DNA from: the human T2T-CHM13v2.0 reference genome, Homo sapiens | Assembly (NCBI GenBank): GCA_009914755.4 | Contig: CP086569.2 | Location: 1,952,001 to 2,016,000 of the forward strand | Direction: 5' to 3' | DNA: 64,000 nt | Part shown: piece after piece, positions 1-55,500 of the stretch | Position numbering within the stretch: position 1 is the first letter of the stretch | Layout of the letters: each line of letters opens with the position of its first letter | Notes under the pieces: generated by a model | What the model saw: only the letters and a program-made list of their open reading frames with translations | Database searches by the model: none | What the model was told of the DNA's origin: nothing | Made by a program: the position numbers and the translations under genes

Positions 1-122
1 ATTTTACTGGGGAGTGAACGCTCAGGGTCACAATCACATATTGTGCCTGAAGCAGTGAACACAGGTGAGGTGTATCCTGAACGGGAGGAGAAGGGAGAGT
101 TCTCCGCTCTCCAAGCGGAGGA

Positions 123-1740
123 GTGATGGGGATGAAAGGGCAATCAGAGAGAGAGAGAGGAGAGAGAGAGGGAGGGCAAAGAAGGAAGAGAGAAGGAGAG
201 GGAGGAAATAGGGAGAAAGAGAGACAAAGAGAGATGGAGAGGGAACAGGGAGAGAGAGGGAGGGCAAACGAGAGGGAGAGAGGAGGAGAGGGAGGAAATA
301 GGGGGAAAGAGAGAAAGAGAGATGGAGAGGGAACAGGGAGAGAGAGGGAGGGCAAACGAGAGGGAGAGAGGAGGAGAGGGAGGAAATAGGGGGAAAGAGA
401 GAAAGAGAGATGGAGAGGGAACAGGGAGAGAGAGGGAGGGCAAACGAGAGAGGGAGAGAGAAGGAAGAGGAGGAAATGGGGGAAAGAGAGAAAGAGAGAT
501 GGAGAGGGAACAGGGAGAGAGAGGGAGGGCAAACGAGAGAGGGAGAGAGAAGGAAGAGGAGGAAATGGGGGAAAGAGAGAGAAAGAGAGATGGAGAGGGA
601 ACAGGGAGAGAGAGGGAGGGCAAACGAGAGGGAGAGAGAAGGAAGAGGAGGAAATGGGGGAAAGAGAGAGAAAGAGAGATGGAGAGGGAACAGGGAGAGA
701 GAGGGAGGGCAAACGAGAGGGAGAGAGAAGGAGGGGAGGAAATAGGGGAAAGAGAGAGAAAGAGAGATGGAGAGGGAACAGGGAGAGAGAGGGAGGGCAA
801 ACGAGAGAGGGAGAGAGAAGGAGAGGGAGGAAATAGGGGGAAAGAGAGAAAGAGAGATGGAGAGGGAACAGGGAGAGAGAGGGAGGGCAAACGAGAGAGG
901 GAGAGAGAAGGAAGAGGAGGAAATGGGGGAAAGAGAGAGAAAGAGAGATGGAGAGGGAACAGGGAGAGAGAGGGAGGGCAAACGAGAGAGGGAGAGAGAA
1001 GGAAGAGGAGGAAATGGGGGAAAGAGAGAGAAAGAGAGATGGAGAGGGAACAGGGAGAGAGAGGGAGGGCAAACGAGAGGGAGAGAGAAGGAAGAGGAGG
1101 AAATGGGGGAAAGAGAGAGAAAGAGAGATGGAGAGGGAACAGGGAGAGAGAGGGAGGGCAAACGAGAGGGAGAGAGAAGGAGGGGAGGAAATAGGGGAAA
1201 GAGAGAGAAAGAGAGATGGAGAGGGAACAGGGAGAGAGAGGGAGGGCAAACGAGAGAGGGAGAGAGAAGGAGAGGGAGGAAATAGGGGGAAAGAGAGAAA
1301 GAGAGATGGAGAGGGAACAGGGAGAGAGAGGGAGGGCAAACGAGAGAGGGAGAGAGAAGGAAGAGGAGGAAATGGGGGAAAGAGAGAGAAAGAGAGATGG
1401 AGAGGGAACAGGGAGAGAGAGGGAGGGCAAACGAGAGGGAGAGAGAAGGAGGGGAGGAAATAGGGGGAAAGAGAGAAAGAGAGATGGAGAGGGAACAGGG
1501 AGAGAGAGGGAGGGCAAACGAGAGAGGGAGAGAGAAGGAAGAGGAGGAAATGGGGGAAAGAGAGAGAAAGAGAGATGGAGAGGGAACAGGGAGAGAGAGG
1601 GAGGGCAAACGAGAGGGAGAGAGAAGGAGGGGAGGAAATAGGGGGAAAGAGAGAAAGAGAGATGGAGAGGGAACAGGGAGAGAGAGGGAGGGCAAACGAG
1701 AGAGGGAGAGAGAAGGAGAGGGAGGAAATAAGGGGAGAGA
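123..1740. repeat. GA-rich tandem array, ~89-bp unit x ~18 with alternating unit variants (higher-order ~178 bp)
   Basis: The motif gagatggagagggaacaggg recurs at 231, 319, 407, 496, 587 and so on. The + strand is almost pure purine. Confidence 0.9.
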
Positions 1741-2440
1741 GAGAAAGAGACAGAGAGAAAGAGAGAAAGGGGGAGAGAAGGAAGGCAAAGGAGAGAGGAG
1801 GAGAGATGGGGGAAGGAGGAAAGAGAGAGAAGTGGGACACAGAGGAAGACAAAGGAGATAGAGAGACAAGGGGAGAGACAGGAAGAGAAAGGAGATAGGG
1901 AGAAGAGGGAGGGTGTGCGAGAGGGAAACAGAAAGGGAGAGAGAGAAGAAAGAGGGGAGAGAGAAGAAAGAGGGGAGGGAGAGAAGAAGGGAAAGGGAGG
2001 GAGAGAGGGAGAGAGAGAATGGGAGAAAAGGAGAGAGAGAAGAGGGGAGAAAGAGGGAGAGAGGGAAGGAAGGAGAGAGGGAGGGAGGGAGAGGGAGAAT
2101 GGGAGAGAGAGAAGAGGGGAGAAAGCGAGGGAGGGAGGGGGAGAGAGAGAAGAAAGAGAGAAGAGAGAAAGAGAGGGAGAGAGAGGGAGAAAGGGAGAGA
2201 GAGAAGGGAGAAGGGGAGAGAGAGGGGGAGAGAGGGAGGGAGGAGGGAGAAGGGAGGTCGAGAGCAAAATAGTAGAAGCGGGGATGGGGTAGACTGAGGA
2301 GAGAGAGAGACAGAGAGAAAAAGCAAAAGAGAGGAAAAGTGAGACAGTGAAGAGGTGGAAAGAGAGAATGACAGAGAGACGGGGAGAAGGAGGAGAGAGA
2401 GACAGAGAGTTACAGAAAGAGAGAGAGAGAGGAGAAAAGC
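1741..2440. repeat. degenerate polypurine (GA)n/(GGA)n/(GGGA)n simple repeat
   Basis: Continuous G/A-only sequence with no stable period; it ends at the unique sequence near 2440. Confidence 0.9.
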
Positions 2441-3074: not shown

Positions 3075-3762
3075 TTTGAATGAACTCATTAGAATTCATT
3101 CATTCATTTGATTCCATTCATTCATTTGCATCATTTGAATTCATTCCTTCTTTTGAATTCACTTGTTCCTTTGAATTCATTCATTCACTTGAATTTATTC
3201 ATTTAAATTCACTCATTTGAATTCATTCATTCATTCCTTTGAATTTGTTCATTCCTTTGAATTCACTCATTCCTTTGAATTCACTCATTCCTTTGAATTC
3301 ACTCATTCCTTTGAATTCATTCATTCATTCCTCTGAATTTATTCATTCCTTTGAATTCATTCGTTCCTTTGACTTCATTTGTTCATTCATTTGAATTCAT
3401 TCCTTCATTTGAATTTATTCATTCCCTTGAATTCATTCAGATTCACTCATTTGAATTCATTCATTCATTCCTTTGAATTCATTCCTTTGAATTCATACAT
3501 TCCTTTCAATTCCTTTAGTCCTTTGAATTCATTCGTTCCTTTGAATTCATTTGTTCATTCATTAGAATTCATTCATTCCTTAGAATTAATTCATTTGAAT
3601 TCATTTGTTCATTCCTTTGAATTCATTTGCATTCATTCATTCCTCTGAATTCATTCATTCATTTGAATTCTTTCATTCATTCAAATTCACTCATTTGAAT
3701 TCATTCAAGTGAATGAATGAATTTGAATGAATGAATGAATGAATGAATGGGTGAATGAAGAA
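3075..3762. repeat. satellite-like (TTCATTCA / GAATTCA)n array with terminal strand inversion to (GAATG)n at ~3708
   Basis: Units of ~23-27 bp each contain a GAATTC site. The palindromic junction tcattcaagtgaatgaatga sits at 3702-3720, followed by gaatgaatgaatg. Confidence 0.85.
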
Positions 3763-4359: not shown

Positions 4360-5000
4360 AAATAGTTTAGGGCAGCAGTCTCCAACCTTTTTGGCACCAG
4401 GGACCACTTTTGTGAAAGACAATTTTCTGAAGACAGAAGGTGGAGGTGGAATGTGGGGATGGTTTTGGGATGATTCCGGGGCATGACATTTATTGTACAC
4501 TTTATTTGTATTATTATTACATTGTACTATATAATGAAATAATTCTACAAGTCGCCATCATATAGAATCAGTGGGAGCCCTGAGCTTGTTTTCCTGTGAC
4601 TAGACAGTCCCATCTGGGGGTGATGGGAGACAGTGACAGATCATCAGGAATTAGATTCCATAAGGAGCACACAACCTAGATCCTTCCCATGCACAGATCA
4701 TCAGGCTTTAGCTTTTCATAAGGAGTGCACAACCTAAGTCCCTCACATGCACAGTTCACAGTAGGGTTTGTGCTCCTATAAGAATCTAATGCTGCTGCTG
4801 ATCTGACAGGAGGCAGAGCTCAGGCAGTCATGTGAACAATGGGGAGTGGCTGTAAATACAGATGAAGCTTTGCTTGTTCACTTGCCACTCACCTTCTGCT
4901 GTGCGGCCGGTGTCCTAACAGGCCATGGACTGGTACTATGACCTGGGGGTTGGACAGCCCTGGTTTAGGGGTCTGCAGACCCCCTACTAGCCTCTTAGAC
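4360..5000 (+). mobile_element. old interspersed repeat, family not assigned (internal palindromic ggccatggactggtac...; possibly DNA-transposon/MER-type)
   Basis: A second, partial copy of the same 5' region (ttttggcaccagg.accggtttc.tggaagacaattttc) lies at 42650-42780. Confidence 0.45.
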
Positions 5001-5095: not shown

Positions 5096-5745
5096 ATCCA
5101 GCAATCTCATTTGCACACAACGAAGAAGAATTCTGATGCACAAACCAACGAGAAAAATCCTTGATTTCTTCTCTAAGTCAAGGTACATCTGGCCCAAGCT
5201 TCAGCACACCAGCTGGTGATGAACCCATTCTCAGCGTTGACTGTATAGAATCCAGCCTTCTCATTTGCACACAACGAAGATGAATTCTGATGCATAAACC
5301 AAGGCATGCAACAAATGAGAAAAATCCTTTACTTCTTCTCTAAATCAACGTACATCTGGCTCAAGCCTCCAGCACAAGAGCTGGTGATGAATCCATTCTC
5401 AACGCTGACTGTGTAGAATCCAGCCTTCTCATTTGCACACCACGAAGATGAATTCTGATGCACAAACTAAGGCATGCAATAAATGAGAAAAATACTTTGC
5501 TTCTTCCCTAAATCCAGGTACATCAGACCCAGGCCTCCAGCACACGGGCTTGTGCTGAATCCATTCTCAGTGCTGACTGTATAGAATCCAGCCTCGTCAT
5601 TTGCACACCATGAAGATGAATTCTGATGCACAAACCAAGGCAAAAAATGCTTTACTTCCTCTCTAAATCAAGGTTCATCTGGCCCAAGCCTCCAGCACAC
5701 AGGCTGGTGATGAATCCATTCTCAGCATAGACTGTGCCATCTGGG
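5096..5745. repeat. tandem repeat, ~168-bp unit x ~4 (not alpha satellite)
   Basis: The motif aatccagcc(a/t)tctcatttgcacac recurs at 5096, 5249, 5417 and 5585. Confidence 0.85.
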
Positions 5746-6519: not shown

Positions 6520-7285
6520 ATGTCCAGGTCCACATTATTCATGTGGGAGACAGAATCATGACCCCAAAAATGCCCACACTGTAATCCCCATGTGGGAGAC
6601 ACAATAATGGCCCCAAAGATGTCCACATCCTAATCCTCAGGTGGAAGACAGAATAATGGCCCCAAAAATGTCCACATCCTAATCCTCATGTGGAAGACAG
6701 AATAATGACCCAAAGATGTCCACATCCCAATCCTCATGTGGAAGACAAAATAATGGCCCTGAAGATGTCCACATCCTAATCCCCATGTGGTAGACAGAAT
6801 AATGGCCCCAAAGATGTCCACATCCCAATCCCCATGTGGTACACAGAATAATGGCCCCGAAGATGTCCATATCCGAATCCCCATGTGGGAGACAGAATAA
6901 TGGCCCCGAAGATGTCCATATCCAAATCCCCATGTGGAAGACAGAATAATGGCCCCAAAGATGTCCACATCCTAATCCCCATGTGGAAGCCGAACAATGG
7001 CCCCAAAGATGTCCATATGTTAATTCCCATGTGGTAGATAGAATAATAGCCCCAAAGATGTTCACATTCTAATCCTCATGTGGGAAACAGAATAATGGCC
7101 CCAAAGATGTCCACATCCTAATCCTCATGTGGAAGACTGAATAATGGCTCTAAAGATGTCCACAGACTAATTCTCATGTGGTCGACACAATAATGACCCC
7201 AGAGATGCCCACAACCTATTCCCAATTTGGAAGAGTAATAACTCAAAAGATGAAAAAATGTCCATGTCCTCATCTCTGGAACACA
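6520..7285. repeat. 49-bp tandem array x ~15 (atgtccacatcctaatcctcatgtggaagacagaataatggccccaaag)
   Basis: Strict 49-bp periodicity; the unit is derived from the head of an adjacent MaLR-like repeat at 7255-7400. Confidence 0.9.
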
Positions 7286-11412: not shown

Positions 11413-11774
11413 TAGGGAGATCAATGAGTCCCATCCTTGTATAGTCCCCTTTCCTTGAGTCTGTGTGGGACCTGTCATTCTCCTCCTGACCTTGATGTGA
11501 GCTGATGTTTTGTGAGAGCGCCTTGGGGCCAGAACCTGGGCATGGCCTCTCTAGGAGCTGACAGCAGCCCCTGGCCAAAAGCCAGCAAGATACTCAGATC
11601 CCCAGATCTGCAGCTTCCAGGAATTGGATTCTGCGTATAACCATGTGAATTTCGAAGATCCTGAGCTCCAGAGAGGACCTCAGGCCAGATGACACTTTGC
11701 TTATAGCCCAGTGAGACCCCGAAGAGAGAATGCAGTTACACCTGCCCAGATTCCTGACCCGCAGCAGCTGTGGG

Positions 11775-12260
11775 ATAGTAAGTATGAGCCCTTCCACGCT
11801 GCTGAGTCTGTGGGTTATTTTGTTACACAGCATATGTAACTGATACACAAAATGACTCAGAAGCAAGGACTTCCTTCTTCTGCAGTAGAGGAATATAGAA
11901 TATAGAATTTTATATAATAATCAAACAGGAAGCAATTTATGCATCCCCTGCTACAGATAGTAAGAAGTACGAGCCCTTCCACGTTGCTGAATCTGTGTTA
12001 TTTTGTTACAGGGCATATGTAACTAATACACAAAATGGCTCAGAAGCAAGGACTTCCTTCTTCCACAGGAGAATATAGAATTTTATATAATAATAAAAAA
12101 GGACGCCATTTATGGATCCCTTGCTACAGATAGTAAGTATGAGCTCTTCCACGCTGCTCAGTCTGTTATTTTGTTACACAGTATATGTAACTAATACACA
12201 AAATGACTCAGAAGCAAGGACTTCCTTCTTCTGCAGAAGAATAATAAAAGAAAGCATTTT
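11775..12260. repeat. tandem repeat, ~175-bp unit x ~2.8 (cttccacgctgctgagtctgtg..ttattttgttacac.gcatatgtaactaatacacaaaatgactcagaagcaaggacttccttcttc)
   Basis: Unit starts near 11775, 11950 and 12125. A further copy lies at 14990-15110. Confidence 0.85.
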
Positions 12261-13289: not shown

Positions 13290-13581
13290 AATGACTCTCC
13301 ACTCACCATCAGAGAGAGAGAAGAGACAGAGATGGAGTGTAAGAATGAGAAAGAGAGAGATAGAAAGATAGAAGCAGAGAGAGAGAGAGAAAGAGAGAAA
13401 GAAAGAAAGGCTAAGAGAGAAAGAGAAAAAAGGAGGGGGAGGAAAAGGGGAAGAGAGAAAAAACACACAGAGATAAAGACAAAGAGACACAGTGAGAGAG
13501 AGAAACAGAAAGAGAGAGAGGGACGGGAGACAGTAAAAGGGACAAAGAGAGAAAGGCAGACAGAGAGATACAAAGAAAGAG
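13290..13581. repeat. GA-rich polypurine simple repeat
   Basis: agagagagaagagacagagatgg...gaaagagagag. Confidence 0.85.
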
Positions 13582-14908
<1,327 letters not shown>

Positions 14909-15110: not shown

Positions 15111-15774
15111 AGCACTTGCTTGTATTGACGGCTTGTATTTTCACGCGGTTCCGGCATGTGGCAATACCGAAGCACAAAGCTGGGGCGCATACGCACATTT
15201 ATTTTCTCATCGAAGACCATAAATAGTTCCCTTCCTCCCATACGTAGCCCATTCTCTTGACTTTCCTTTTCTGGGATGGACTGTGGGGTTCTCGCCGAGA
15301 GATGCTTGTGTGCCTCACTTGGGGATCGTAAACGCAAATGTGTCACCTCCTTCAGGAAGTTTTCCTGAACCCCAAGCCACGCCGGGCATCTCTAGATCTG
15401 GCTTCCGCAATCGCAACGACAGTACCCATCATTGCACCTCCTCACTTGCATGACCAGTATGTTTTTAAGCATGTCTCATATGCCTTGGATGCTACGTAAC
15501 TTTGGAACATACATTGAAATGATGCATCTTTGAGTGTCCAGAGCTAGGCTCTCTGGGCACACCCAGAAAAAAGTCAGCGGAAGAGGTAAAGGGAAGATGT
15601 ATGGGAGCTTGGGCCACGTCCTCTGCTGGCGCTCTGCCGCATGCCAGCTTCTGCCCCAGAGGGAGGGGAGGGAAGGAGAGGGAAAAAGAGAAAAGAAGAA
15701 AAGGGGAGAAAGGTGAAGTGAAAAATATCAGCATGAAGCAAAAATGTGTCCTCAGACAAAAAGGAAATGCATAG

Positions 15775-16125
15775 ACCCGAGGCAGACAGGAATAGGACCC
15801 AGGCAGATAGGAATAGGACCCAGGCAGATAGACCCAGGCAGACAGGAATAGGACCCAGGCAGATAGACCCCAGGCAGATAGGAATAGGACCCAGGCAGAT
15901 AGGAATAGGACCCAGGCAGATAGACCCCAGGCAGACAGGAATAGGACCCAGGCAGATAGGAATAGGACCCAGGCAGATAGACCCCAGGCAGATAGGAATA
16001 GGACCCAGGCAGATAGGAATAGGACCCGGGCAGATAGACCCCAGGCAGACAGGAATAGGACCCAGGCAGATAGGAATAGGACCCAGGCAGATAGACCCAG
16101 GCAGATAGGAATAGGACCCAGGCAG
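15775..16125. repeat. minisatellite, alternating 21-bp (cccaggcagataggaataggA) and 14-bp (cccaggcagataga) units
   Basis: About 20 units; the ORFs 15746..16108 and 15752..16129 are translations of this array. Confidence 0.9.
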
Positions 16126-22731: not shown

Positions 22732-23452
22732 GATGGATGCATGCATGGACGGATGGACGGATGAATTGATGGATGGGTGGAAGGATGGGTAGATGGATGG
22801 ATAGGTGGATGGATGGATGGATTGGATAGATGGATGGATAAATGGATGGATGGATGGATGGGTGGATGGGTGGGTGGGTGGGTGGATGGGTGGGTGGATG
22901 GGTGGGTGGATGGATGGATGGATGGATGGGTGGATGGGTGGATGGGTGGATGGATGGATGGATGGATAAATGGATGGATGGATGGATGGATGGATGGGTG
23001 GGTGGGTGGATCGATGGATTGATGGATGGATACATGAGAGGATGGGTGAGTGGATGGATGGATGAATTGATGGATGGACGGATGGATGAACTGATGGATG
23101 GATGGATGGATGGATGGATGGATGGATGGATGGATGGGTGGGTGGGTGGATTGATGGGTGGATAGATGGATGGATGGATAAATGGATGGATGGATGAATG
23201 GATGGATGGATGGATGGATGGATGAACTGATGGATGGATGGATGGATGGATGGATGGATAAATGGATGGATGGATGGATGGATGGATGGATGGATAAATG
23301 GATGGATGGATGGGTGGGTGGGTGGATGGATGGGTGGGTGGGTGGGTGGATGGATGGATGGATGAATGGATGGATGGATGGATGGATGAACTGATGGATG
23401 GATGGATGGATGGATGGATGGATAGATGGATGGATGAATTGATAGATGGGTA
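22732..23452. repeat. (GGAT)n/(TGGA)n microsatellite with GGGT/GAAT/AAAT variants, ~720 bp
   Basis: ggatggatggatgggtgg... runs between the two MaLR LTRs. The ORFs 22674..23480 and 22681..23484 are translations of it. Confidence 0.95.
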
Positions 23453-29584: not shown

Positions 29585-30382
<798 letters not shown>

Positions 30383-32759: not shown

Positions 32760-33200
32760 CTCTGTAAAATATTTGAAGAGATTTATTCTGAGCGAAATAT
32801 GAGTGACCACGGCCCGTGACACAGCTCTCAGGAGATCCCGAGAACATGTACCCCAGGTGGTCGGGGTGCAGCTTGATTTTATATATTTTAGGAAGGCATG
32901 AGACATCAATCAAATACATTTCAGAAATACATTGGTTTGGTTCAGAAAGGTGGGACAACTCAACCTGGGGGCTGCCAGGCTATAGGTAAGTTTAAATATT
33001 TTCTGGTTGACAATTGGTTGAGTTTATCTGAAGACCTGGAATCAACAGAAAGGAAATGTCCAGGTGGAGATAAAGGATTGTGGGAACCAAGTTTTATTTT
33101 GCACAGGAAGCTCTCAGATAGCAGACTTCAGAGAGAACAGGTTGTAAAATGTTTCTTATCAGACCTAAAAGGGGGCCTGGCTCTTAGTTGATTATGTCCC
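32760..33200 (+). mobile_element. old interspersed repeat, family not assigned
   Basis: A paralogous copy lies at 59870-60100; both share tttata.attttagg.ag.catgagacatcaatcaa.ata. Confidence 0.4.
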
Positions 33201-33224
33201 AGATCTGGGAAGGAACAAAGGAAC

Positions 33225-34025
33225 AAAGGGAGGGACGGAAGGAAGGAGGGAAGGAGGGAAGGAAGAGAGGGAGGGAAGGAGGGAATGAAGGAGGGAATGA
33301 GGGAGGGAAGGAGGGAATGAGGGAGGGAAGGAGGGAGGCAGGGAGGGAAGGAGGGAGGCAGGGAGGGAAGGAGGGAGGCAGGGAGGGAAGGAGGGAGGCA
33401 GGGAGGGAAGGAGGGAGGCAGGGAGGGAAGGAGGGAGGCAGGGAGGGAAGCAGGGAAGGAGGGAGGGAGGGAGGGAAGGAGGGAGGGAGGGAGGGAGGGA
33501 AAGGAGGGAGGGAGGGAGGGAAGCAGGGAAGGAGGGAGGCAGGGAGGGAAGGAGGAAGGCAGGGAGGGAAGCAGGGAAGGAGGGAGGGAGGGAGGGAAAG
33601 AGGGAAGGAGGGAGGGAGGGAGGGAGGGAAAGGAGGGAGGGAGGGAGGGAAGCAGGGAAGGAGGGAGGGAGGGAGGGAAGGAGGGAGGGAGGGAGGGAAG
33701 GAGGGAAGGAGGGAGGGAGGGAGGGAGGGAAGGAGGGAGGGAGGGAAGGAGGGAGGGAGGGAAAGGAGGGAGGGAGGGAGGGAGGGAAGGAGGGAGGGAG
33801 GGAGGGAAGGGAGAGAGGGAAAGAAGGGAGGGAGGGAAAGAAGGAATGGAGGGAAGGAAGGAAGGGAAAGAAGGGAGGGAAGGAAGGAAGGGGAGAAGGG
33901 AGGAAGGAAGGGGAGAAGGAAGGAAGGAAGGGAGGAAGGAAGGGGAGAAGGAAGGAAGGAAGGGGAGAAGGAAGGGAGGAAGGAAGGGAGGAAGGGAGGT
34001 AAGGGAGGTAAGGGAGGGAGGGAGG
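33225..34025. repeat. (GGGAGGGAAGGA)n / GGAA-GGGA polypurine repeat, ~800 bp
   Basis: ggagggaaggagggaggcagggagggaagg... The ORF 33188..34117 is a translation of it. Confidence 0.95.
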
Positions 34026-34380
34026 AAAGGCTATTCTCTATAGAATGTGGATTTTTCCCACAAGAGACTTCTCAGGGCAATTTCAAGGTATGGCAAGGAA
34101 ATATATTTTGGGGTTAAATACATTGTTTTTCCTTGTCTCATTATGTTATGCCAGAGTCACATTGGAAAGTAAGTTACGATATATAGGGTTAAATAAAACC
34201 CATCTAATGAGAACTCATGGTTTGTAAAGAATGACTCCCTAGACCCTTTAGATAGGAATTTGGGCAAGATAAAAAAATCAGAACTTCGTCCTCATGATTT
34301 TGCCTGGAGCAGCTTCTGTCCTGAAATTTACCCGACTTGAAACACTATGGCTCGGAAGTCATTGAAAAGATTGGGTCTTA

Positions 34381-40649: not shown

Positions 40650-40955
<306 letters not shown>

Positions 40956-41185
40956 TTATGAGATGACATTATGAAAATAATAAGCTCAAATGAACTAATT
41001 CTGATTTTTGTCTTTATAGCATTATTCCTGGACATTAAAAAAATGTGGAGGTGGCCAGTTATGGATACTAAGCACCCAGGCAGCCCCAGCCAGCACCCAA
41101 GTGGCCACTTGGAGGGTGAGAAATGAATAAAATGGCTAAGCTCTCCACAGGAGGCCGTAAGGTCCAAACACAACGGATCAGTTTG

Positions 41186-42655
41186 TGGGGGGAGGGGAGG
41201 GGGAGGGGGAGGGGGAGGAGGGGAGGGGGAGGGGGAGGGGGAGGAGGGGAGGGGGAGGGGGAGGAGGGGAGGGGGAGGAGGGGGAGGGGAGGGGGAGGGG
41301 GAGGGGGAGGGGGAGGAGGGGGAGGAGGGGGGGAGGGGGAGGGGGAGGAGGGGGAGAGGGGGAGGAGGGGGAGAGGGGGAGGAGGGGGAGAGGGGGAGAG
41401 GGGGAGGAGGGGGAGGAGGGGGAGAGGGGGAGGAGGGGGAGAGGGGGAGGAGGGGGAGGAGGGGGAGAGGGGGAGGAGGGGGAGAGGGGGAGGAGGGGGA
41501 GAGGGGGAGGAGGGGGAGAGGGGGAGGAGGGGGAGAGGGGGAGGAGGGGGAGAGGGGGAGGGGGAGGGGAAAGAGGGGGAGGGGAAGAGGGGGAGGGGAA
41601 AGAGGGGGAGGGGGAGGAGGGGTAGAAGGAGGGAGGAAGAGGGGGAGGAGGGGGAGGAGGGGGAGGGGAGGAGGGGGAGGAGGGAGGAAGAGGAGGAGGG
41701 AGAAGGGAGGAGGAGGGAGAAGGGAGAAGAGGGGGAGGAGGGAGAAGGGAGAAGGGAGAAGAGGGGGGAGGAGGGAGAAGGGAGAAGAGGGGGGAGGAGG
41801 GAGAAGGGAGAAGAGGAGGGGGAAGGAGGGAGAAGGGAGAAGAGGAGGGGGAGGAGGGAGAAGGGAGAGGAGGAGGGGGAGGAGGGAGAAGGGAGAGGAG
41901 GAGGGGGAAGGAGGGAGAAGGGAGAAGAGGAGGGGGAGGAGGGAGAAGGGAGAGGAGGAGGGGGAGGAGGGAGAAGGGAGAGGAGGAGGGGGAGGAGGGA
42001 GAAGGGAGAAGAGGGGGAGGAGGGAGAAGGGAGAAGAGGAGGGGGAGGAGGGAGAAGGGAGAAGAGGAGGGAGAAGAGGAGGGAGAAGAGGAGGGAGAAG
42101 AGGAGGGAGAAGAGGAGGGAGAAGAGGAGGGAGAAGAGGGGGAGAAGGGGAGGAAGGGGAGGGGGAGGGGGAGGGGGAGGGGAGGAGGGGGAGGGGAGGA
42201 GGGGGAGGGGGAGGGGGAGGAGGGGGGAGGAGGGGGAGGAGGGGGGAGGAGGGGGAGGAGGGGGGAGGAGGAGGGGGGAGGAGGGGGAGGAGGAGGGGGG
42301 AGGAGGGGGGAGGAGGGGGAGGGGAGGGGGGAGGGGAGGGGAGGAGGGGGAGGGGAGGGGAGGAGGGGGAGGGGAGGGGAGGAGGGGGAGGGGAGGGGGA
42401 GGGGGAGGGGAGGGGGAGGAGGTGGAGGGGAGGGGGAGGAGGTGGAGGGGAGGGGGAGGAGGTGGAGGGGAGGAGGGGGAGGGGAAGGGGAGGAGGGGGA
42501 GGGGAAGGGGAGGGGGAGGGGAAGGGGAGGAGGAGGGGACGGGGAGGAGGAGGGGAAGGGGAGGAGGAGGGGAAGGGGAGGAGGAGGGGACGGGGAGGAG
42601 GAGGGGACGGGGAGGTGAAGACGAGGAGGAGGGGACGGGGAGGAGGAAGGGGAGG
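41186..42655. repeat. G-rich polypurine (GGGGA)n/(GGAGG)n/(GGGAGAA)n compound repeat, ~1.47 kb
   Basis: Uninterrupted G/A sequence, ~65% G on the + strand. The ORFs 41068..42807(-), 41123..42721(+) and 41178..42674(-) are translations of it. Confidence 0.95.
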
Positions 42656-42771
42656 ACTTCCACCCTTTTGGCACCAGGAACCGGTTTCATGGAAGACAAT
42701 TTTTCCGTGGACCGAAAATGAGGGTAGATGGTTTCAGGATGATTTGCACACATTGCATTTATTGTACACTC
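42650..42771 (+). mobile_element. fragment of the interspersed repeat family seen at 4360-5000
   Basis: ccttttggcaccaggaaccggtttcatggaagacaatttttccgtggaccg...gcacacattgcatttattgtacactctattttt. Confidence 0.45.
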
Positions 42772-43062
42772 TATTTTTCTTTTCTTTTCTTTGAGATGGA
42801 CTCTCACTCTGTTGCCCAGGCTGCAGTGCAGTGGTGCAGTCTTGGCTCACTGCACCTCCGCTTCCTGGGTTCAAGCAATTCTCCTATCTCAGCGTCTTGA
42901 GCAGCTAGGATTACGAGTGTGTGCCACCACGTACAGCTAATTTTTGAACCAGGATTTCACCATGTTGGCCAGGCTGGTCTCGAACTCCTGACCTCAAGCA
43001 ATCTGCCCACCTTGGTCTCCCAAAATGCTGGGATTACAGGCATGAGCCACCGCACGCAGTCC
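42772..43062 (-). mobile_element. Alu (with internal deletion)
   Basis: ctttgagatggactctcactctgttgcccaggctgcagtgcagtggtgc...catgagccaccgcacgcagtcc. Confidence 0.9.
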
Positions 43063-49711: not shown

Positions 49712-49827
49712 AGCTTTTCTCTTTAACGAAAAGCAGCCCCAAGTCATTTTCTAACAATGAACAGCCTGTCAAGTCGAGCTGCAGACATACACAAGCCAGC
49801 TGGGAGCTTGTACGGGTGAATGTCGGG

Positions 49828-50120
49828 AGGACCTAGGGACTAGACACGTTCAAGATGGCGGCTCCATCTTCCCGGGAGGAACTAACGACTAGACACGTTC
49901 AAGATGGCGGCTCCATCTTCCGGGCAGGAACTAGGGACTAGACACGTTCAAGATGGCGGCTCCATCTTCCCGGCAGGAACTAGGGACTAGACACGTTCAA
50001 GATGGCGGTTCCATCTTCCCGGCAGGAACTAGGGACTAGACACATTCAAAACGGCGGCTCCATCTTCCCAGCAGGAACTAGAGACTAGACACGTTCAAGA
50101 CAGTGGCTCCATCTTCCCTC
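49828..50120. repeat. 49-bp tandem repeat x ~6 (ggactagacacgttcaagatggcggctccatcttcccggcaggaactag)
   Basis: gttcaag recurs at 49848, 49897, 49946, 49995, 50044 and 50093. Each unit has the inverted repeat AAGATGG-n7-CCATCTT. Confidence 0.9.
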
Positions 50121-50149
50121 CTCTTTGTCAGCCACATGTAAAGTAAGAA

Positions 50150-50560
50150 AAACAGGACCGAGAGCCCCGACCAACTACAAAGCCCATTTGCATAACCGAT
50201 TAGGGTGGGCAACCAGCCTTTCCTGTGGGCTATGTAAATGTCATGCTTGATGGAACCAATCTCTCGGAGAGCCCCGACCAACTACAAAGCCCATTTGCAT
50301 AAACGATTAGGGTGGGCAACCAGCCTTTCCTGTGGGCTATGTAAATGCCATGCTTGATGGAACCAATCTCTGAGCTCTATGTAAATGAGACACCGCCTCC
50401 TCAAACTGGACTATAAAATCCATCACATTTGGTGCCAGCTGGTCCTTTCCGCTCGGAGACCCCTTTCTCTATAGAGAAAACCATTTCTCTTTCTCTTCTC
50501 TTCTCCTGATTAAACTTCCACTCCTAAACTCCTCGTGTGTGTCTTTGTCCTAAATTTTCC
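50150..50560 (+). promoter_or_regulatory. retroviral-LTR-like promoter module (U3-R-like): 2 x 107-bp direct repeat, CCAAT (50366-50375), TATAAAA (50412-50418), ATTAAA (50508-50513)
   Basis: gagagccccgaccaactacaaagcccatttgcata..cgattagggtgggcaaccagcctttcctgtgggctatgtaaatg.catgcttgatggaaccaatctc is duplicated at 50160 and 50267. It is followed by ggactataaaatccatcac and ...cctgattaaacttcc. Confidence 0.45.
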
Positions 50561-52269: not shown

Positions 52270-53440
<1,171 letters not shown>

Positions 53441-54704
53441 TTTCATCCTGTTCCTTTCCTCAGGTGGTGTTGCAGAGTACCCCAGCATCTTTAGGTGGTG
53501 GTAGAAGAGACTCCAGCATCTGCCATAACCCCCGGAAGAGTGTTCTGTATGTTACACTGTGGGGAGGTTTTCCTCAAAGCATTAGAGTGATCTGAACAAT
53601 GGGAATCTTTGCACAGAGGAGGATGAGTTCTACTCGGGGATGGTACCTACTAAGAGAGACATGTTGTCTTCTCTTCAATTGCCCTTTAACGAAGAAATAA
53701 AAATTATTTAATTATTCGGTGAAGAAATAAAAAGAGTATTGCATTCTTTCAACAGAGATTCTGCACTTGTACTCCCAGGTATTTATGAAACCTCATGTTG
53801 ATGCCTGGTGCATAGGCCAGGCAGTGGGGCTCTACCTAAGTAATGCCTGGTGGTTGGCCATGGGTAGCTGGAGCACCAATAGCATACTCTAATAGTCCAT
53901 GACATCGGTCTACTCAAGGGCCATGGCTCAAATAGAAGGCTTTGTTTGGAGGAATTCAAAAGAGGTTCTACTGAGAAGGAACCTATGAATCAGTGCTGCC
54001 ACAATACTTTTGGATTGTGCGGTTCAAACGCCATATTGGTTTTCTTCCAGCTCTCCAGCTCCAGCAGCACTGAGGCAGATCTGAGTTTCTCGAAGCTGGG
54101 CCCATCACCAACAAGACAGTGATGGTGAAAGCAATGATAGAAGAGGTCGAATTTAGAGTAAGGATCAGGATGGACAGGTGGGTACATCTATGCAACCCTA
54201 ACCTTTCTGAAACTACTAGGCATAGATATTTTCCTGAAGACTAGTCTCAGCCTGCATGGATGGTCCCTCATGGCTACTGTCTCATTTGAAAAGTGAACCT
54301 ATGAAAAGAGGAAAACACTATGACATCCACCACTGTTTGGTCACACCAATTCTTGACATTAACTCTCTCGAAGGACATTAGTATGACCTTCAAATCCTAG
54401 CCCGCAGGAAAGCTTCACTTTAGTTGTTTGTTTCCTGGGTGTCCCTTCCTACAACCCACGAGGCAAATGCCACACACCCTCCTTACATGCATAAAACAGT
54501 GCTGATAATGGATGAAACACACAAGTATCAGCTCATGCCTGCACTTTCAGAGAAAACACTCTTGCTTAGACCATGGGTATGTCAAGCTGCCAAGGATACA
54601 AAAGGTAAAACAATCCAAGGGCAACAGATGGTTCATGACAAAGAACTAAGAGGGCAGCACTGCGATTCCAAAAATTTGGATATGGACGTCAATGAGAGTG
54701 AATG

Positions 54705-54880
54705 AGAGAGAAGGAGAGAGACAGAGGGAGAGAGGGGGGGGAGGGAGGGAGAGAGAGAGAGAGAGACAGAGAGAAAGGAAGGAGGAGGAGGAGAAAGGAA
54801 GGAGGAGGAGGAGAAAGAGGAGGAGGAGAAGCAGGAGGAGGGGGAAGAGGAGGTGAAGGAGAAGGGAAAAAAAAAGTAGA
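54705..54880. repeat. GA/GGA-rich polypurine repeat
   Basis: gagagaaggagagagacagagggagagagggggggg...aggaggaggaggagaaag... Confidence 0.9.
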
Positions 54881-54883
54881 AGG

Positions 54884-55500
<617 letters not shown>

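What the first reader, a model, noticed from the sequence alone, without database searches (positions are those of the whole stretch)
41186..42655. 1.47 kb uninterrupted G-rich polypurine block (GGGGA/GGAGG/GGGAGAA)n
This is exceptionally long for a G-tract repeat, with hundreds of consecutive G3-5 runs all on one strand. Such tracts form G-quadruplexes and triplex (H-DNA) structures, stall replication and are length-unstable. Sub-periodicities change along the block: GGGGGA near 41200, GGGGGAGGAGGGGGAGA at 41350-41560, (GGGAGAA) at 42060-42130, and GGGGAGGAGGT near 42420. This suggests several expansion episodes. It is also the source of the longest spurious ORFs in the six-frame track.
Basis: seen in the sequence. 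Interest (0 to 1): 0.5.

Follow-up and report, generated by a model that had tools for sequence, protein, structure and literature searches.

The report
Long G-rich purine repeat, ordinary
This is a real 1.47 kb stretch of almost pure G and A on one strand of a primate genome, built from several short tandem repeats; it could fold into unusual DNA shapes, but it is a well-known kind of non-coding simple repeat and not a new element.

Summary
Window 41187-42655 (1469 bp) is 99.3% purine (G 1061, A 398). It is not uninterrupted: 10 pyrimidines split it into pure runs of 436 and 799 bp plus shorter ones. It has 177 G-runs of 3 or more. It is a mosaic of at least eight tandem arrays with periods of 6/20/26, 17, 15/29, 28 (85 bp higher order), 12, 19/32, 20 and 17 bp. 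Seven of the ten interruptions come from two point mutations that were copied along with their repeat unit, which shows stepwise unit duplication.

By sequence criteria it has strong G-quadruplex potential in the outer blocks, weak or none in the centre, and H-DNA mirror repeats with arms up to 52 bp. Its ORFs (579, 532 and 498 aa) are compositional artefacts and are not the longest in the window. It is not an immunoglobulin switch region, an SVA hexamer array, telomeric repeat, a retroelement tail or coding sequence.

Longer tracts of this kind are documented (PKD1 intron 21), and the same window holds a 2.3 kb and a 0.84 kb purine block. Polymorphism and in vivo structure formation could not be tested. 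Verdict: already known kind, low interest.

The parts
41187..42655 (+). Whole compound G-rich homopurine tract: 1469 bp, 72% G, 27% A, 10 pyrimidine interruptions
41187..41340 (+). Block A: GGGGGA/GGGGA/GGA mix, periods 6, 20 and 26; G4Hunter 3.09
41335..41561 (+). Block B: 17-mer GGGGGAGGAGGGGGAGA x13.9, 90% matches; holds the longest perfect mirror repeats (arms up to 52 bp)
41557..41700 (+). Block C: degenerate 15/29-mer region, 79% matches; a single T at 41623
41704..42060 (+). Block D: 28-mer AGGGGGAGGAGGGAGAAGGGAGAAGAGG x12.8 (92% matches) with an 85 bp higher-order period; G4Hunter 1.79; largely free of canonical G4 motifs
42056..42145 (+). Block E: 12-mer AGGGAGAAGAGG x7.6 (7 perfect copies); G4Hunter 1.36; no G4 in the predicted fold
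42146..42410 (+). Block F: 19/32-mer G-rich region (AGGGGAGGAGGGGGAGGGG); G4Hunter 2.90
42398..42470 (+). Block G: 20-mer GGAGGTGGAGGGGAGGGGGA x3.7 (98% matches); the same T recurs at 42423, 42443 and 42463
42472..42655 (+). Block H: decayed 17/51-mer region (GGAGGAGGAGGGGAAGG). The unit variant GGGGACGGGG recurs 4 times (C at 42540, 42591, 42608, 42636), plus single changes at 42616 and 42622. TRF places the 17-mer array itself at 42472-42615.
40661..40950 (+). Upstream Alu, sense orientation, with its A-rich tail; it ends about 237 bp before the tract, so the tract is not this Alu's tail
40951..41186 (.). Left flank with no other copy in the window; sharp boundary ...cagtttgt|gggggg; no target-site duplication with the right flank
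42662..42776 (+). Right flank: fragment of an old interspersed repeat, 71% identical to a second copy at 4385-4507 (E 2e-14). The tract abuts its 5' part.
42786..43053 (-). Downstream Alu, antisense orientation

Best explanation
The tract is a non-coding, compound purine microsatellite/minisatellite (a 'GA-rich' or '(GGGGA)n' simple repeat) in Alu-dense primate DNA.

How it arose. It grew through successive rounds of replication slippage and/or unequal exchange. Each round amplified a different short purine unit (6, 17, 28, 12, 19, 20 or 17 bp). Occasional point mutations were copied along with their unit. Nothing suggests that it encodes a protein or RNA, or that it belongs to a mobile element.

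Physical behaviour (inferred). Because one strand is nearly pure G+A, that strand cannot form Watson-Crick hairpins. When it is unwound, the G-dense outer blocks (41187-41700 and 42146-42655) can stack into tandem parallel G-quadruplexes. The mirror-symmetric stretches, above all 41390-41561, can form an intramolecular triplex (H-DNA) under negative supercoiling. The C-rich complement could form i-motifs.

Expected consequences. These are orientation-dependent pausing of polymerases, R-loop-prone transcription if the G-rich strand is the non-template strand, and raised length mutability. Any such effects would be by-products of a repeat that is most likely selectively neutral.

Shown here: composition, block anatomy, duplication after mutation, formal G4 and H-DNA motif content, and the spurious nature of the ORFs. 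Inferred: structure formation in vivo, stalling and polymorphism.
For: - Composition and extent: 99.3% purine over 1469 bp, with pure runs of 799 and 436 bp against at most 25 in shuffles.
- Eight sub-arrays with distinct units at 79-98% matches. The 12-mer occurs in 7 perfect copies.
- Seven of the 10 interruptions trace to two mutations propagated by unit duplication. Three T's sit at exact 20 bp spacing in an identical 25-nt context, and four C's sit in an identical context.
- G4 potential: 33 canonical motifs, G4Hunter mean 2.38. The Watson-Crick minimum free energy is 0.0 for every segment. With G4s allowed it is -72 to -191 kcal/mol per 120 nt, except for the 12-mer block.
- Mirror repeats with arms up to 52 bp, against at most 23 in shuffles.
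- No sign of coding or a structured RNA: no Pfam hit for the three long ORFs; no stop codons in 5 of 6 frames by composition alone; no Rfam family in the window; no Pfam domain in the window ORFs submitted, which were nearly all the non-repeat ORFs of 55 aa or more.
- The setting is about 50 Alus in 64 kb.
- Literature for behaviour. G-rich homopurine tracts block transcription when the G-rich strand is the non-template strand (PMC3561996, abstract). A PKD1 purine/pyrimidine tract forms both triplex and G4 and promotes instability (PMC9142560; PMC11667243). (GGGA)n forms parallel G4s (PMC12038398).
Against: - No allele or orthologue was obtained, so neither length polymorphism nor the lack of conservation that a neutral repeat predicts has been shown.
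- No experimental data exist for G4 or H-DNA at this locus.
- (GGGA)-type G4s were only weak blocks to replicative polymerases in vitro (PMC12038398), so 'stalls replication' may be overstated.
- All ten purine-rich segments of the window lie on the same strand. This hints at a regional, strand-asymmetric process that simple neutral slippage does not explain.
- The exact length could be imprecise. GA-rich sequence causes HiFi coverage dropout in human assemblies (PMC9186530).
Confidence: 0.85

Rival explanations
1. The tract is a functional non-B DNA or protein-binding element. It might be a replication-fork barrier, a recombination hotspot, or an array of sites for G-rich-motif binders (MAZ-like GGGAGGG) acting as a chromatin boundary. 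In that case its size would be maintained by selection.
For: - 49 overlapping GGGAGGG and 49 GGGGAGGGG motifs.
- Dense G4 and mirror-repeat content.
- Clusters of H-palindromes have been linked to recombination-active regions (PMC4538819). Polypurine tracts are enriched in human recombination hot spots (PMC1543642).
- All purine tracts of the window share one strand.
Against: - There is only 1 match to the PRDM9 13-mer inside the tract, against 10 in the minisatellite at 162-1822.
- The mosaic of young, nearly perfect arrays next to decayed ones is the signature of turnover, not of a conserved element.
- No conservation or occupancy data could be obtained.
- That GGGAGGG is a MAZ-like site rests on my recall. 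It was not tested.
Confidence: 0.08
2. The sequence, or at least its length and unit order, is an assembly or sequencing artefact of a hard-to-sequence GA-rich region.
For: GA-rich sequence causes HiFi coverage dropout, and in T2T-CHM13 the resulting gaps had to be filled from a nanopore-based assembly (PMC9186530). Such patches are more error-prone in low-complexity DNA (my knowledge).
Against: - The tract has crisp internal structure: 7 perfect 12-mers, 20-mers at 98% matches, and point variants recurring in identical 20-25 nt contexts. Random sequencing error would not create this.
- Both boundaries to the flanking DNA are sharp.
Confidence: 0.05
3. The tract belongs to a known composite element or specialised region. 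The candidates are the expanded A-rich tail of an Alu or L1, the (CCCTCT)n hexamer end of an SVA, an immunoglobulin switch region, or a low-complexity protein-coding exon.
For: - Three other purine tracts in the window do sit directly 3' of sense-oriented Alus: 14014-14215, 30115-30342 and 55137-55489 (the middle one passes only the 85% purine threshold).
- Long ORFs cross the tract.
Against: - The nearest sense Alu tail ends about 237 bp upstream, with other, non-repeat sequence in between.
- There are no tandem AGAGGG dimers, and no Alu-like, VNTR or SINE-R parts adjoin the tract.
- There are 0 AGCT and 0 GAGCT motifs, and no immunoglobulin domain in the window ORFs scanned.
- The ORFs have no Pfam match and are open only because the composition excludes stop codons.
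- No target-site duplication flanks the tract.
Confidence: 0.02

Closest known systems
PKD1 intron 21 polypurine/polypyrimidine tract (PyRE)
   Same: Both are kilobase-scale, nearly pure purine/pyrimidine tracts in primate non-coding DNA. Both are made of many mirror repeats, are G/C-rich, and can form both triplex and G4. The PKD1 tract is documented to stall replication and promote instability (PMC11667243; PMC9142560).
   Different: The PKD1 tract is 2.5 kb with 23 perfect mirror repeats and lies in a defined intron. For the tract here, the gene context and transcription direction are unknown, and the window's GC content (about 46%) is not that of the PKD1 region as I recall it. No experimental data exist for this locus. 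Its unit structure, clear tandem 12- to 28-mers, is more minisatellite-like.
Long uninterrupted homopurine/homopyrimidine (R.Y) tracts of the human genome (Bacolla et al. 2006 survey; H-DNA motif surveys of T2T-CHM13)
   Same: With pure runs of 799 and 436 bp it falls in the class of R.Y tracts of 250 bp or more. That paper's title and a citing paper (PMC4538819) place such tracts in clusters in the pseudoautosomal region and in brain-expressed genes. This window also holds a cluster of such tracts.
   Different: The survey paper itself could not be read, so its thresholds and counts are from my recall. Whether this window lies in the pseudoautosomal region was not established.
(GGGA)n microsatellite G4 motif
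   Same: It has the same motif family (G3-5 runs separated by a single A). That motif is abundant in the human genome, forms parallel G4s, and shows replication and transcription strand bias (PMC12038398).
   Different: The tract here is a 1.5 kb compound array with G5 runs and GGA/GAA spacers, not a short pure tetranucleotide repeat. Polymerase inhibition by (GGGA)n was reported as weak, and the behaviour of a 1.5 kb array is untested.
G-rich minisatellites (for example CEB25)
   Same: Both have tandem 10-30 bp G-rich units on one strand, with G4-dependent instability (CEB25 is mentioned in PMC12038398).
   Different: Classical G-rich minisatellites contain pyrimidines in their units and are not homopurine, so they lack H-DNA potential. 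Hypervariability is documented for them but not for this tract.

Membership tests
Long homopurine/homopyrimidine tract (H-DNA motif) | One strand essentially all purine over 100-250 bp or more | tested here: met
   99.3% purine over 1469 bp; pure runs of 799 and 436 bp
Long homopurine/homopyrimidine tract (H-DNA motif) | Mirror-repeat symmetry with a short spacer | tested here: met
   330 perfect mirror repeats (arm 10 or more, spacer 8 or less); arms up to 52 bp against at most 23 in shuffles; 70% coverage against 30-49%
Long homopurine/homopyrimidine tract (H-DNA motif) | Triplex actually forms under supercoiling (S1 or chemical probing) | not testable with these tools
   Needs an experiment
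G-quadruplex-forming sequence array | Four or more G-runs of 3 or more with loops of 1-7 nt; G4Hunter 1.5 or more | tested here: met
   33 non-overlapping motifs; 92% of 25-nt windows score 1.5 or more. It is not uniform: 41795-42128 has no canonical motif and block E scores 1.36
G-quadruplex-forming sequence array | G4 observed experimentally (G4-seq, CD, ChIP) | not testable with these tools
   Needs an experiment or an external track
Compound minisatellite / VNTR | Head-to-tail units of about 10-100 bp | tested here: met
   17-, 28- (85-), 12-, 19-, 20- and 17-mers at 83-98% matches
Compound minisatellite / VNTR | Copy number varies between individuals | not testable with these tools
   No allele or orthologue was retrievable
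Immunoglobulin class-switch region | Dense AGCT/GAGCT (AID hotspot) pentamers on the G-rich strand | tested here: not met
   0 AGCT, 0 GAGCT and 1 GGGGT in the tract
SVA retrotransposon hexamer end | Tandem (CCCTCT)n/(AGAGGG)n next to Alu-like, VNTR and SINE-R parts | tested here: not met
   0 tandem AGAGGG dimers. The left flank has no other copy in the window and the right flank is an unrelated old repeat
Retroelement poly(A)-tail-derived purine microsatellite (as at RFC1) | The array starts at the 3' end of a sense-oriented Alu or L1 | tested here: not met
   The nearest sense Alu ends at about 40950, some 237 bp upstream of the tract
Protein-coding low-complexity exon | An ORF with homology or a domain, open for reasons other than composition | tested here: not met
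   No Pfam family for the 579-, 532- and 498-aa ORFs. Five of 6 frames are stop-free by composition. The exact ORF products are absent from the gene-position collection

The most novel reading that the evidence does not exclude
The tract may be the largest member of a regional, strand-polar cluster. All ten segments of the window with 90% or more purine (about 6.1 kb, 9.5% of the 64 kb) lie on the + strand, and none lies on the - strand. Canonical G4 motifs run 90 to 4. This would mean that a fixed-direction process, such as unidirectional replication from a nearby origin or transcription through the whole window, drives or permits purine-repeat expansion on one strand only. The tract's block ages could then serve as a record of that process.
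Probability: 0.15. Interest if true: 0.4.

Novelty: already known. Interest (0 to 1): 0.15.

Why it matters
In practice, the tract is a likely site of read-depth dropout, mis-sizing and spurious ORF calls, so it should be masked in gene finding. It is also a plausible length-variable marker and a possible fragile point if it lies in a transcribed region with the G-rich strand as the non-template strand. Scientifically it adds one more example to a well-described class (long R.Y tracts, H-DNA and G4 arrays). It does not open a new question. The one feature worth a second look is the strict same-strand polarity of all purine tracts across the 64 kb window.

Tried and rejected
1. Fetching alleles or orthologues to test length variation. 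Exact-product look-ups found nothing for the 532-aa ORF across the tract and for a 95-aa ORF in the left flank. Exact left- and right-junction 30-31-mers found nothing in metagenome contigs or in prokaryotic genome contigs. The DNA collections on offer are not primate genomes.

2. Identifying the locus or gene. Rfam at gathering thresholds gave 0 hits. The non-repeat ORFs of 55 aa or more were joined into pseudo-proteins and scanned against Pfam. Nearly all of them were submitted; some, including the L1-derived ones, were left out. The scan gave 0 families. The locus therefore stays unidentified. The idea that it lies in the pseudoautosomal region is only a lead, based on the clustering of purine tracts.

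3. The Bacolla 2006 survey could not be opened by DOI or by PMC id.

4. PRDM9-motif clustering in the tract is rejected: there is 1 match only.

5. Switch region, SVA hexamer, telomeric repeat, Alu tail and coding exon are all rejected.

6. Target-site duplication around the tract: none of 7 bp or more.

7. The only 'proteins' here are compositional ORFs, and no outcome would have changed the verdict.

Full report
**What is there.** It is 1469 bp with G 1061, A 398, T 5 and C 5, which is 99.3% purine on the + strand. The tract is not strictly uninterrupted. Ten pyrimidines divide it into pure purine runs of 436 bp (41187-41622) and 799 bp (41624-42422), plus shorter runs at the 3' end. Chance is not an issue: in 50 shuffles of the rest of the window the longest purine run averaged 17.4 and never exceeded 25. 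There are 354 G-runs, of which 177 have three or more G and 140 have four or more. 'Hundreds of consecutive G3-5 runs' is therefore somewhat generous. There is no C-run or T-run of two or more.

**Setting.** The window carries about 50 Alu copies in both orientations, so it is primate DNA. The tract lies between two flanks.
- On the left is a 236 bp stretch with no other copy in the window (40951-41186). It follows a sense Alu (40661-40950).
- On the right is a fragment of an old interspersed repeat (42662-42776), 71% identical to a second copy at 4385-4507 (E 2e-14). An antisense Alu follows at 42786-43053.
- Both boundaries are sharp, and no target-site duplication flanks the tract.
- No Rfam family reaches its gathering score anywhere in the window.
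- The non-repeat ORFs of 55 aa or more that were submitted to Pfam, nearly all of them, match no family. The tract therefore looks intergenic or intronic. The locus could not be identified.

**Internal anatomy.** Whole-tract Tandem Repeats Finder output gives only blurred periods of 6, 9 and 17. Sliding autocorrelation and block-wise TRF resolve a mosaic.

| Block | Coordinates | Unit and copies | Matches |
|---|---|---|---|
| A | 41187-41340 | GGGGGA/GGGGA/GGA mix, periods 6, 20 and 26 | 81-85% |
| B | 41335-41561 | 17-mer GGGGGAGGAGGGGGAGA x13.9 | 90% |
| C | 41557-41700 | degenerate 15/29-mer | 79% |
| D | 41704-42060 | 28-mer x12.8, with an 85 bp higher-order period | 92% |
| E | 42056-42145 | 12-mer AGGGAGAAGAGG, 7 perfect copies | 98% |
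| F | 42146-42410 | 19/32-mer | 83-84% |
| G | 42398-42470 | 20-mer GGAGGTGGAGGGGAGGGGGA x3.7 | 98% |
| H | 42472-42655 | 17/51-mer, the most decayed part (TRF 17-mer array 42472-42615) | 84-90% |

The '(GGGAGAA)' and 'GGGGAGGAGGT' units are sub-strings of the true 12-mer and 20-mer.

**Evidence for stepwise expansion.** The interruptions act as markers.
- The three T's at 42423, 42443 and 42463 are exactly 20 bp apart and sit in an identical 25-nt context.
- The four C's at 42540, 42591, 42608 and 42636 share the context aggaggaggggaCggggagg.
- Seven of the ten interruptions therefore come from two point mutations that were later copied with their repeat unit. Only three (41623, 42616, 42622) are singletons.
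- Near-perfect young arrays (blocks E and G) lie next to decayed ones (blocks C and H).

They point to slippage or unequal exchange of whole units as the mechanism.

**Structural potential.**
- G-quadruplex: there are 33 non-overlapping canonical motifs. The mean G4Hunter score is 2.38, and 92% of 25-nt windows score 1.5 or more.
- The potential is uneven. The outer blocks score 2.4-3.1, block D scores 1.79 and block E 1.36. Positions 41795-41987 and 42018-42128 contain no canonical motif.
- With ViennaRNA (RNA parameters, so only indicative), every 120-nt segment has a Watson-Crick minimum free energy of 0.0, as expected for a homopurine strand. Allowing G4s gives -72 to -191 kcal/mol, except for block E, which stays at 0.0. 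Only 1 of 30 control 120-mers contained a G4 in its predicted fold.
- H-DNA: there are 330 perfect mirror repeats (arm 10 or more, spacer 8 or less). Arms reach 52 bp within 41407-41561, against at most 23 in shuffles of the tract. They cover 70% of the tract, against 30-49% in shuffles.

The formal sequence requirements for both G4 and H-DNA are therefore met. Whether either structure forms in vivo is not shown.

**The ORFs.** ORFs of 579 aa (-), 532 aa (+) and 498 aa (-) cross the tract. Five of the six frames contain no stop codon inside it. A G/A-only strand cannot spell TAA, TAG or TGA, and neither can its C/T-only complement. None of the three products matches a Pfam family, and the exact products are not on record. 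They are not the longest in the window, however: ORFs of 772 aa and 611 aa lie in another purine block at 34-2462.

**What it is not.**
- It is not an immunoglobulin switch region: 0 AGCT and 0 GAGCT motifs.
- It is not telomeric: 0 TTAGGG.
- It is not an SVA hexamer array: 0 tandem AGAGGG dimers and no adjoining SVA parts.
- It is not the tail of the upstream Alu, which ends 237 bp away.
- It is not a PRDM9-motif cluster: it holds 1 match, although the window has 25 against 3.4 expected, with 10 of them in the 162-1822 minisatellite.

**How it most likely works.** I commit to a selectively neutral, compound purine repeat whose only 'activity' is physical. When unwound, the G-rich strand can fold into tandem parallel G4s. 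Under negative supercoiling, the mirror-symmetric parts can form H-DNA.

Established work on related sequences predicts the following.
- Transcription blockage that depends on orientation, occurring when the G-rich strand is the non-template strand (PMC3561996, abstract).
- Fork stalling, checkpoint activation and breakage at the PKD1 tract (PMC11667243; PMC9142560).

A caveat is that (GGGA)n-type G4s, although they form parallel quadruplexes, were about 10-fold weaker blocks to Pol epsilon and Pol delta than (GGGT)n (PMC12038398). All of this is inference for the present locus.

**Comparison with what is known.** Kilobase-scale purine/pyrimidine tracts are well documented.
- PKD1 intron 21 has a 2.5 kb element with 23 perfect mirror repeats (PMC11667243).
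- The T2T genome has an H-DNA motif with 797 bp arms (PMC11879447).
- Clusters of H-palindromes occur in the pseudoautosomal region (PMC4538819, citing Bacolla 2006).
- From memory, unverified because the paper was not available: that survey counted several hundred human tracts with 250 or more uninterrupted bp. The present tract would be in that list.
- Within this window alone there are a 2.3 kb block at 94% purine (112-2409) and an 843 bp (AGGG/AAGG)n block (33198-34040).

The tract is long, but it is not exceptional and it is not a new kind of element.

**Reliability of the sequence.** GA-rich sequence causes HiFi coverage dropout in human assemblies (PMC9186530), so the exact length deserves a read-level check. 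The crisp unit structure and the recurring variants argue that the sequence is real and not noise.

**What could not be done.** It could not be run, because no primate genome collection is available in these tools and every indirect route failed.

**Verdict.** The tract is an already known kind of element and deserves low interest (0.15). The one thing worth following up is regional and not specific to this tract: every purine-rich segment in the 64 kb lies on the same strand, 10 to 0, and G4 motifs run 90 to 4.

Noticed in passing
window 1-64000: Strict strand polarity of purine tracts. Ten segments with 90% or more purine per 100 bp lie on the + strand (about 6.1 kb, 9.5% of the window), and none is pyrimidine-rich. 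At the 85% threshold the count is 11 to 1. Canonical G4 motifs run 90 (+) to 4 (-). Alus occur in both orientations, so Alu tails alone do not explain this.
   Followed up: partly
window 112-2409: A larger purine block than the one flagged: 2.3 kb at 94% purine. Its core (162-1822) is an 89 bp GA-rich minisatellite x18.6 with a 449 bp (5-unit) higher-order period at 96% matches. It has one G4 motif per unit and 10 matches to the PRDM9 13-mer CCNCCNTNNCCNC. It carries the longest ORFs of the window, 772 and 611 aa on the - strand.
   Followed up: partly
window 33198-34040: An 843 bp (AGGG/AAGG)n purine block (96% purine) with about 28 canonical G4 motifs. Its 5' part repeats a 28 bp unit with a recurring C (ggagggaggCagggagggaa), which again shows a mutation copied with its unit.
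   Followed up: partly
window 13308-14215, 29621-30342, 54678-55489: Three composites of the form 'GA-rich tract, sense Alu, GA-rich tract'. The first two are paralogous to each other (70-78% identity over about 850 bp). This fits Alu insertion into, or tail expansion within, purine-rich targets.
   Followed up: partly
window 22732-23449: A 718 bp (GATG)n tetranucleotide array, about 179 copies at 82% matches.
   Followed up: no
window 49824-50371: A 49 bp repeat x6 (92% matches) containing AAGATGGCGGC, which I recall as a YY1-type core (not tested). It is followed by a 107 bp unit x2 at 98% matches that contains ATTTGCAT. This may be a promoter- or LTR-like tandem structure.
   Followed up: no
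window 3086-3707, 5143-5726, 6540-7234, 11774-12243, 15774-16125, 52746-53417: The window is unusually dense in other tandem arrays, with periods of 18/172, 168, 49/244, 168, 21/57 and 235 bp. Such VNTR density, together with clustered purine tracts, is reminiscent of subtelomeric or pseudoautosomal DNA, but the locus was not identified.
   Followed up: no
window 4373-4900 and 42662-42776: Two copies of an old interspersed repeat that begins ...ttttggcaccagg(g/a)acc.... The copy at about 4.4-4.9 kb is longer and contains an internal 58 bp duplication (4636-4758). I could not name the family with these tools.
   Followed up: partly
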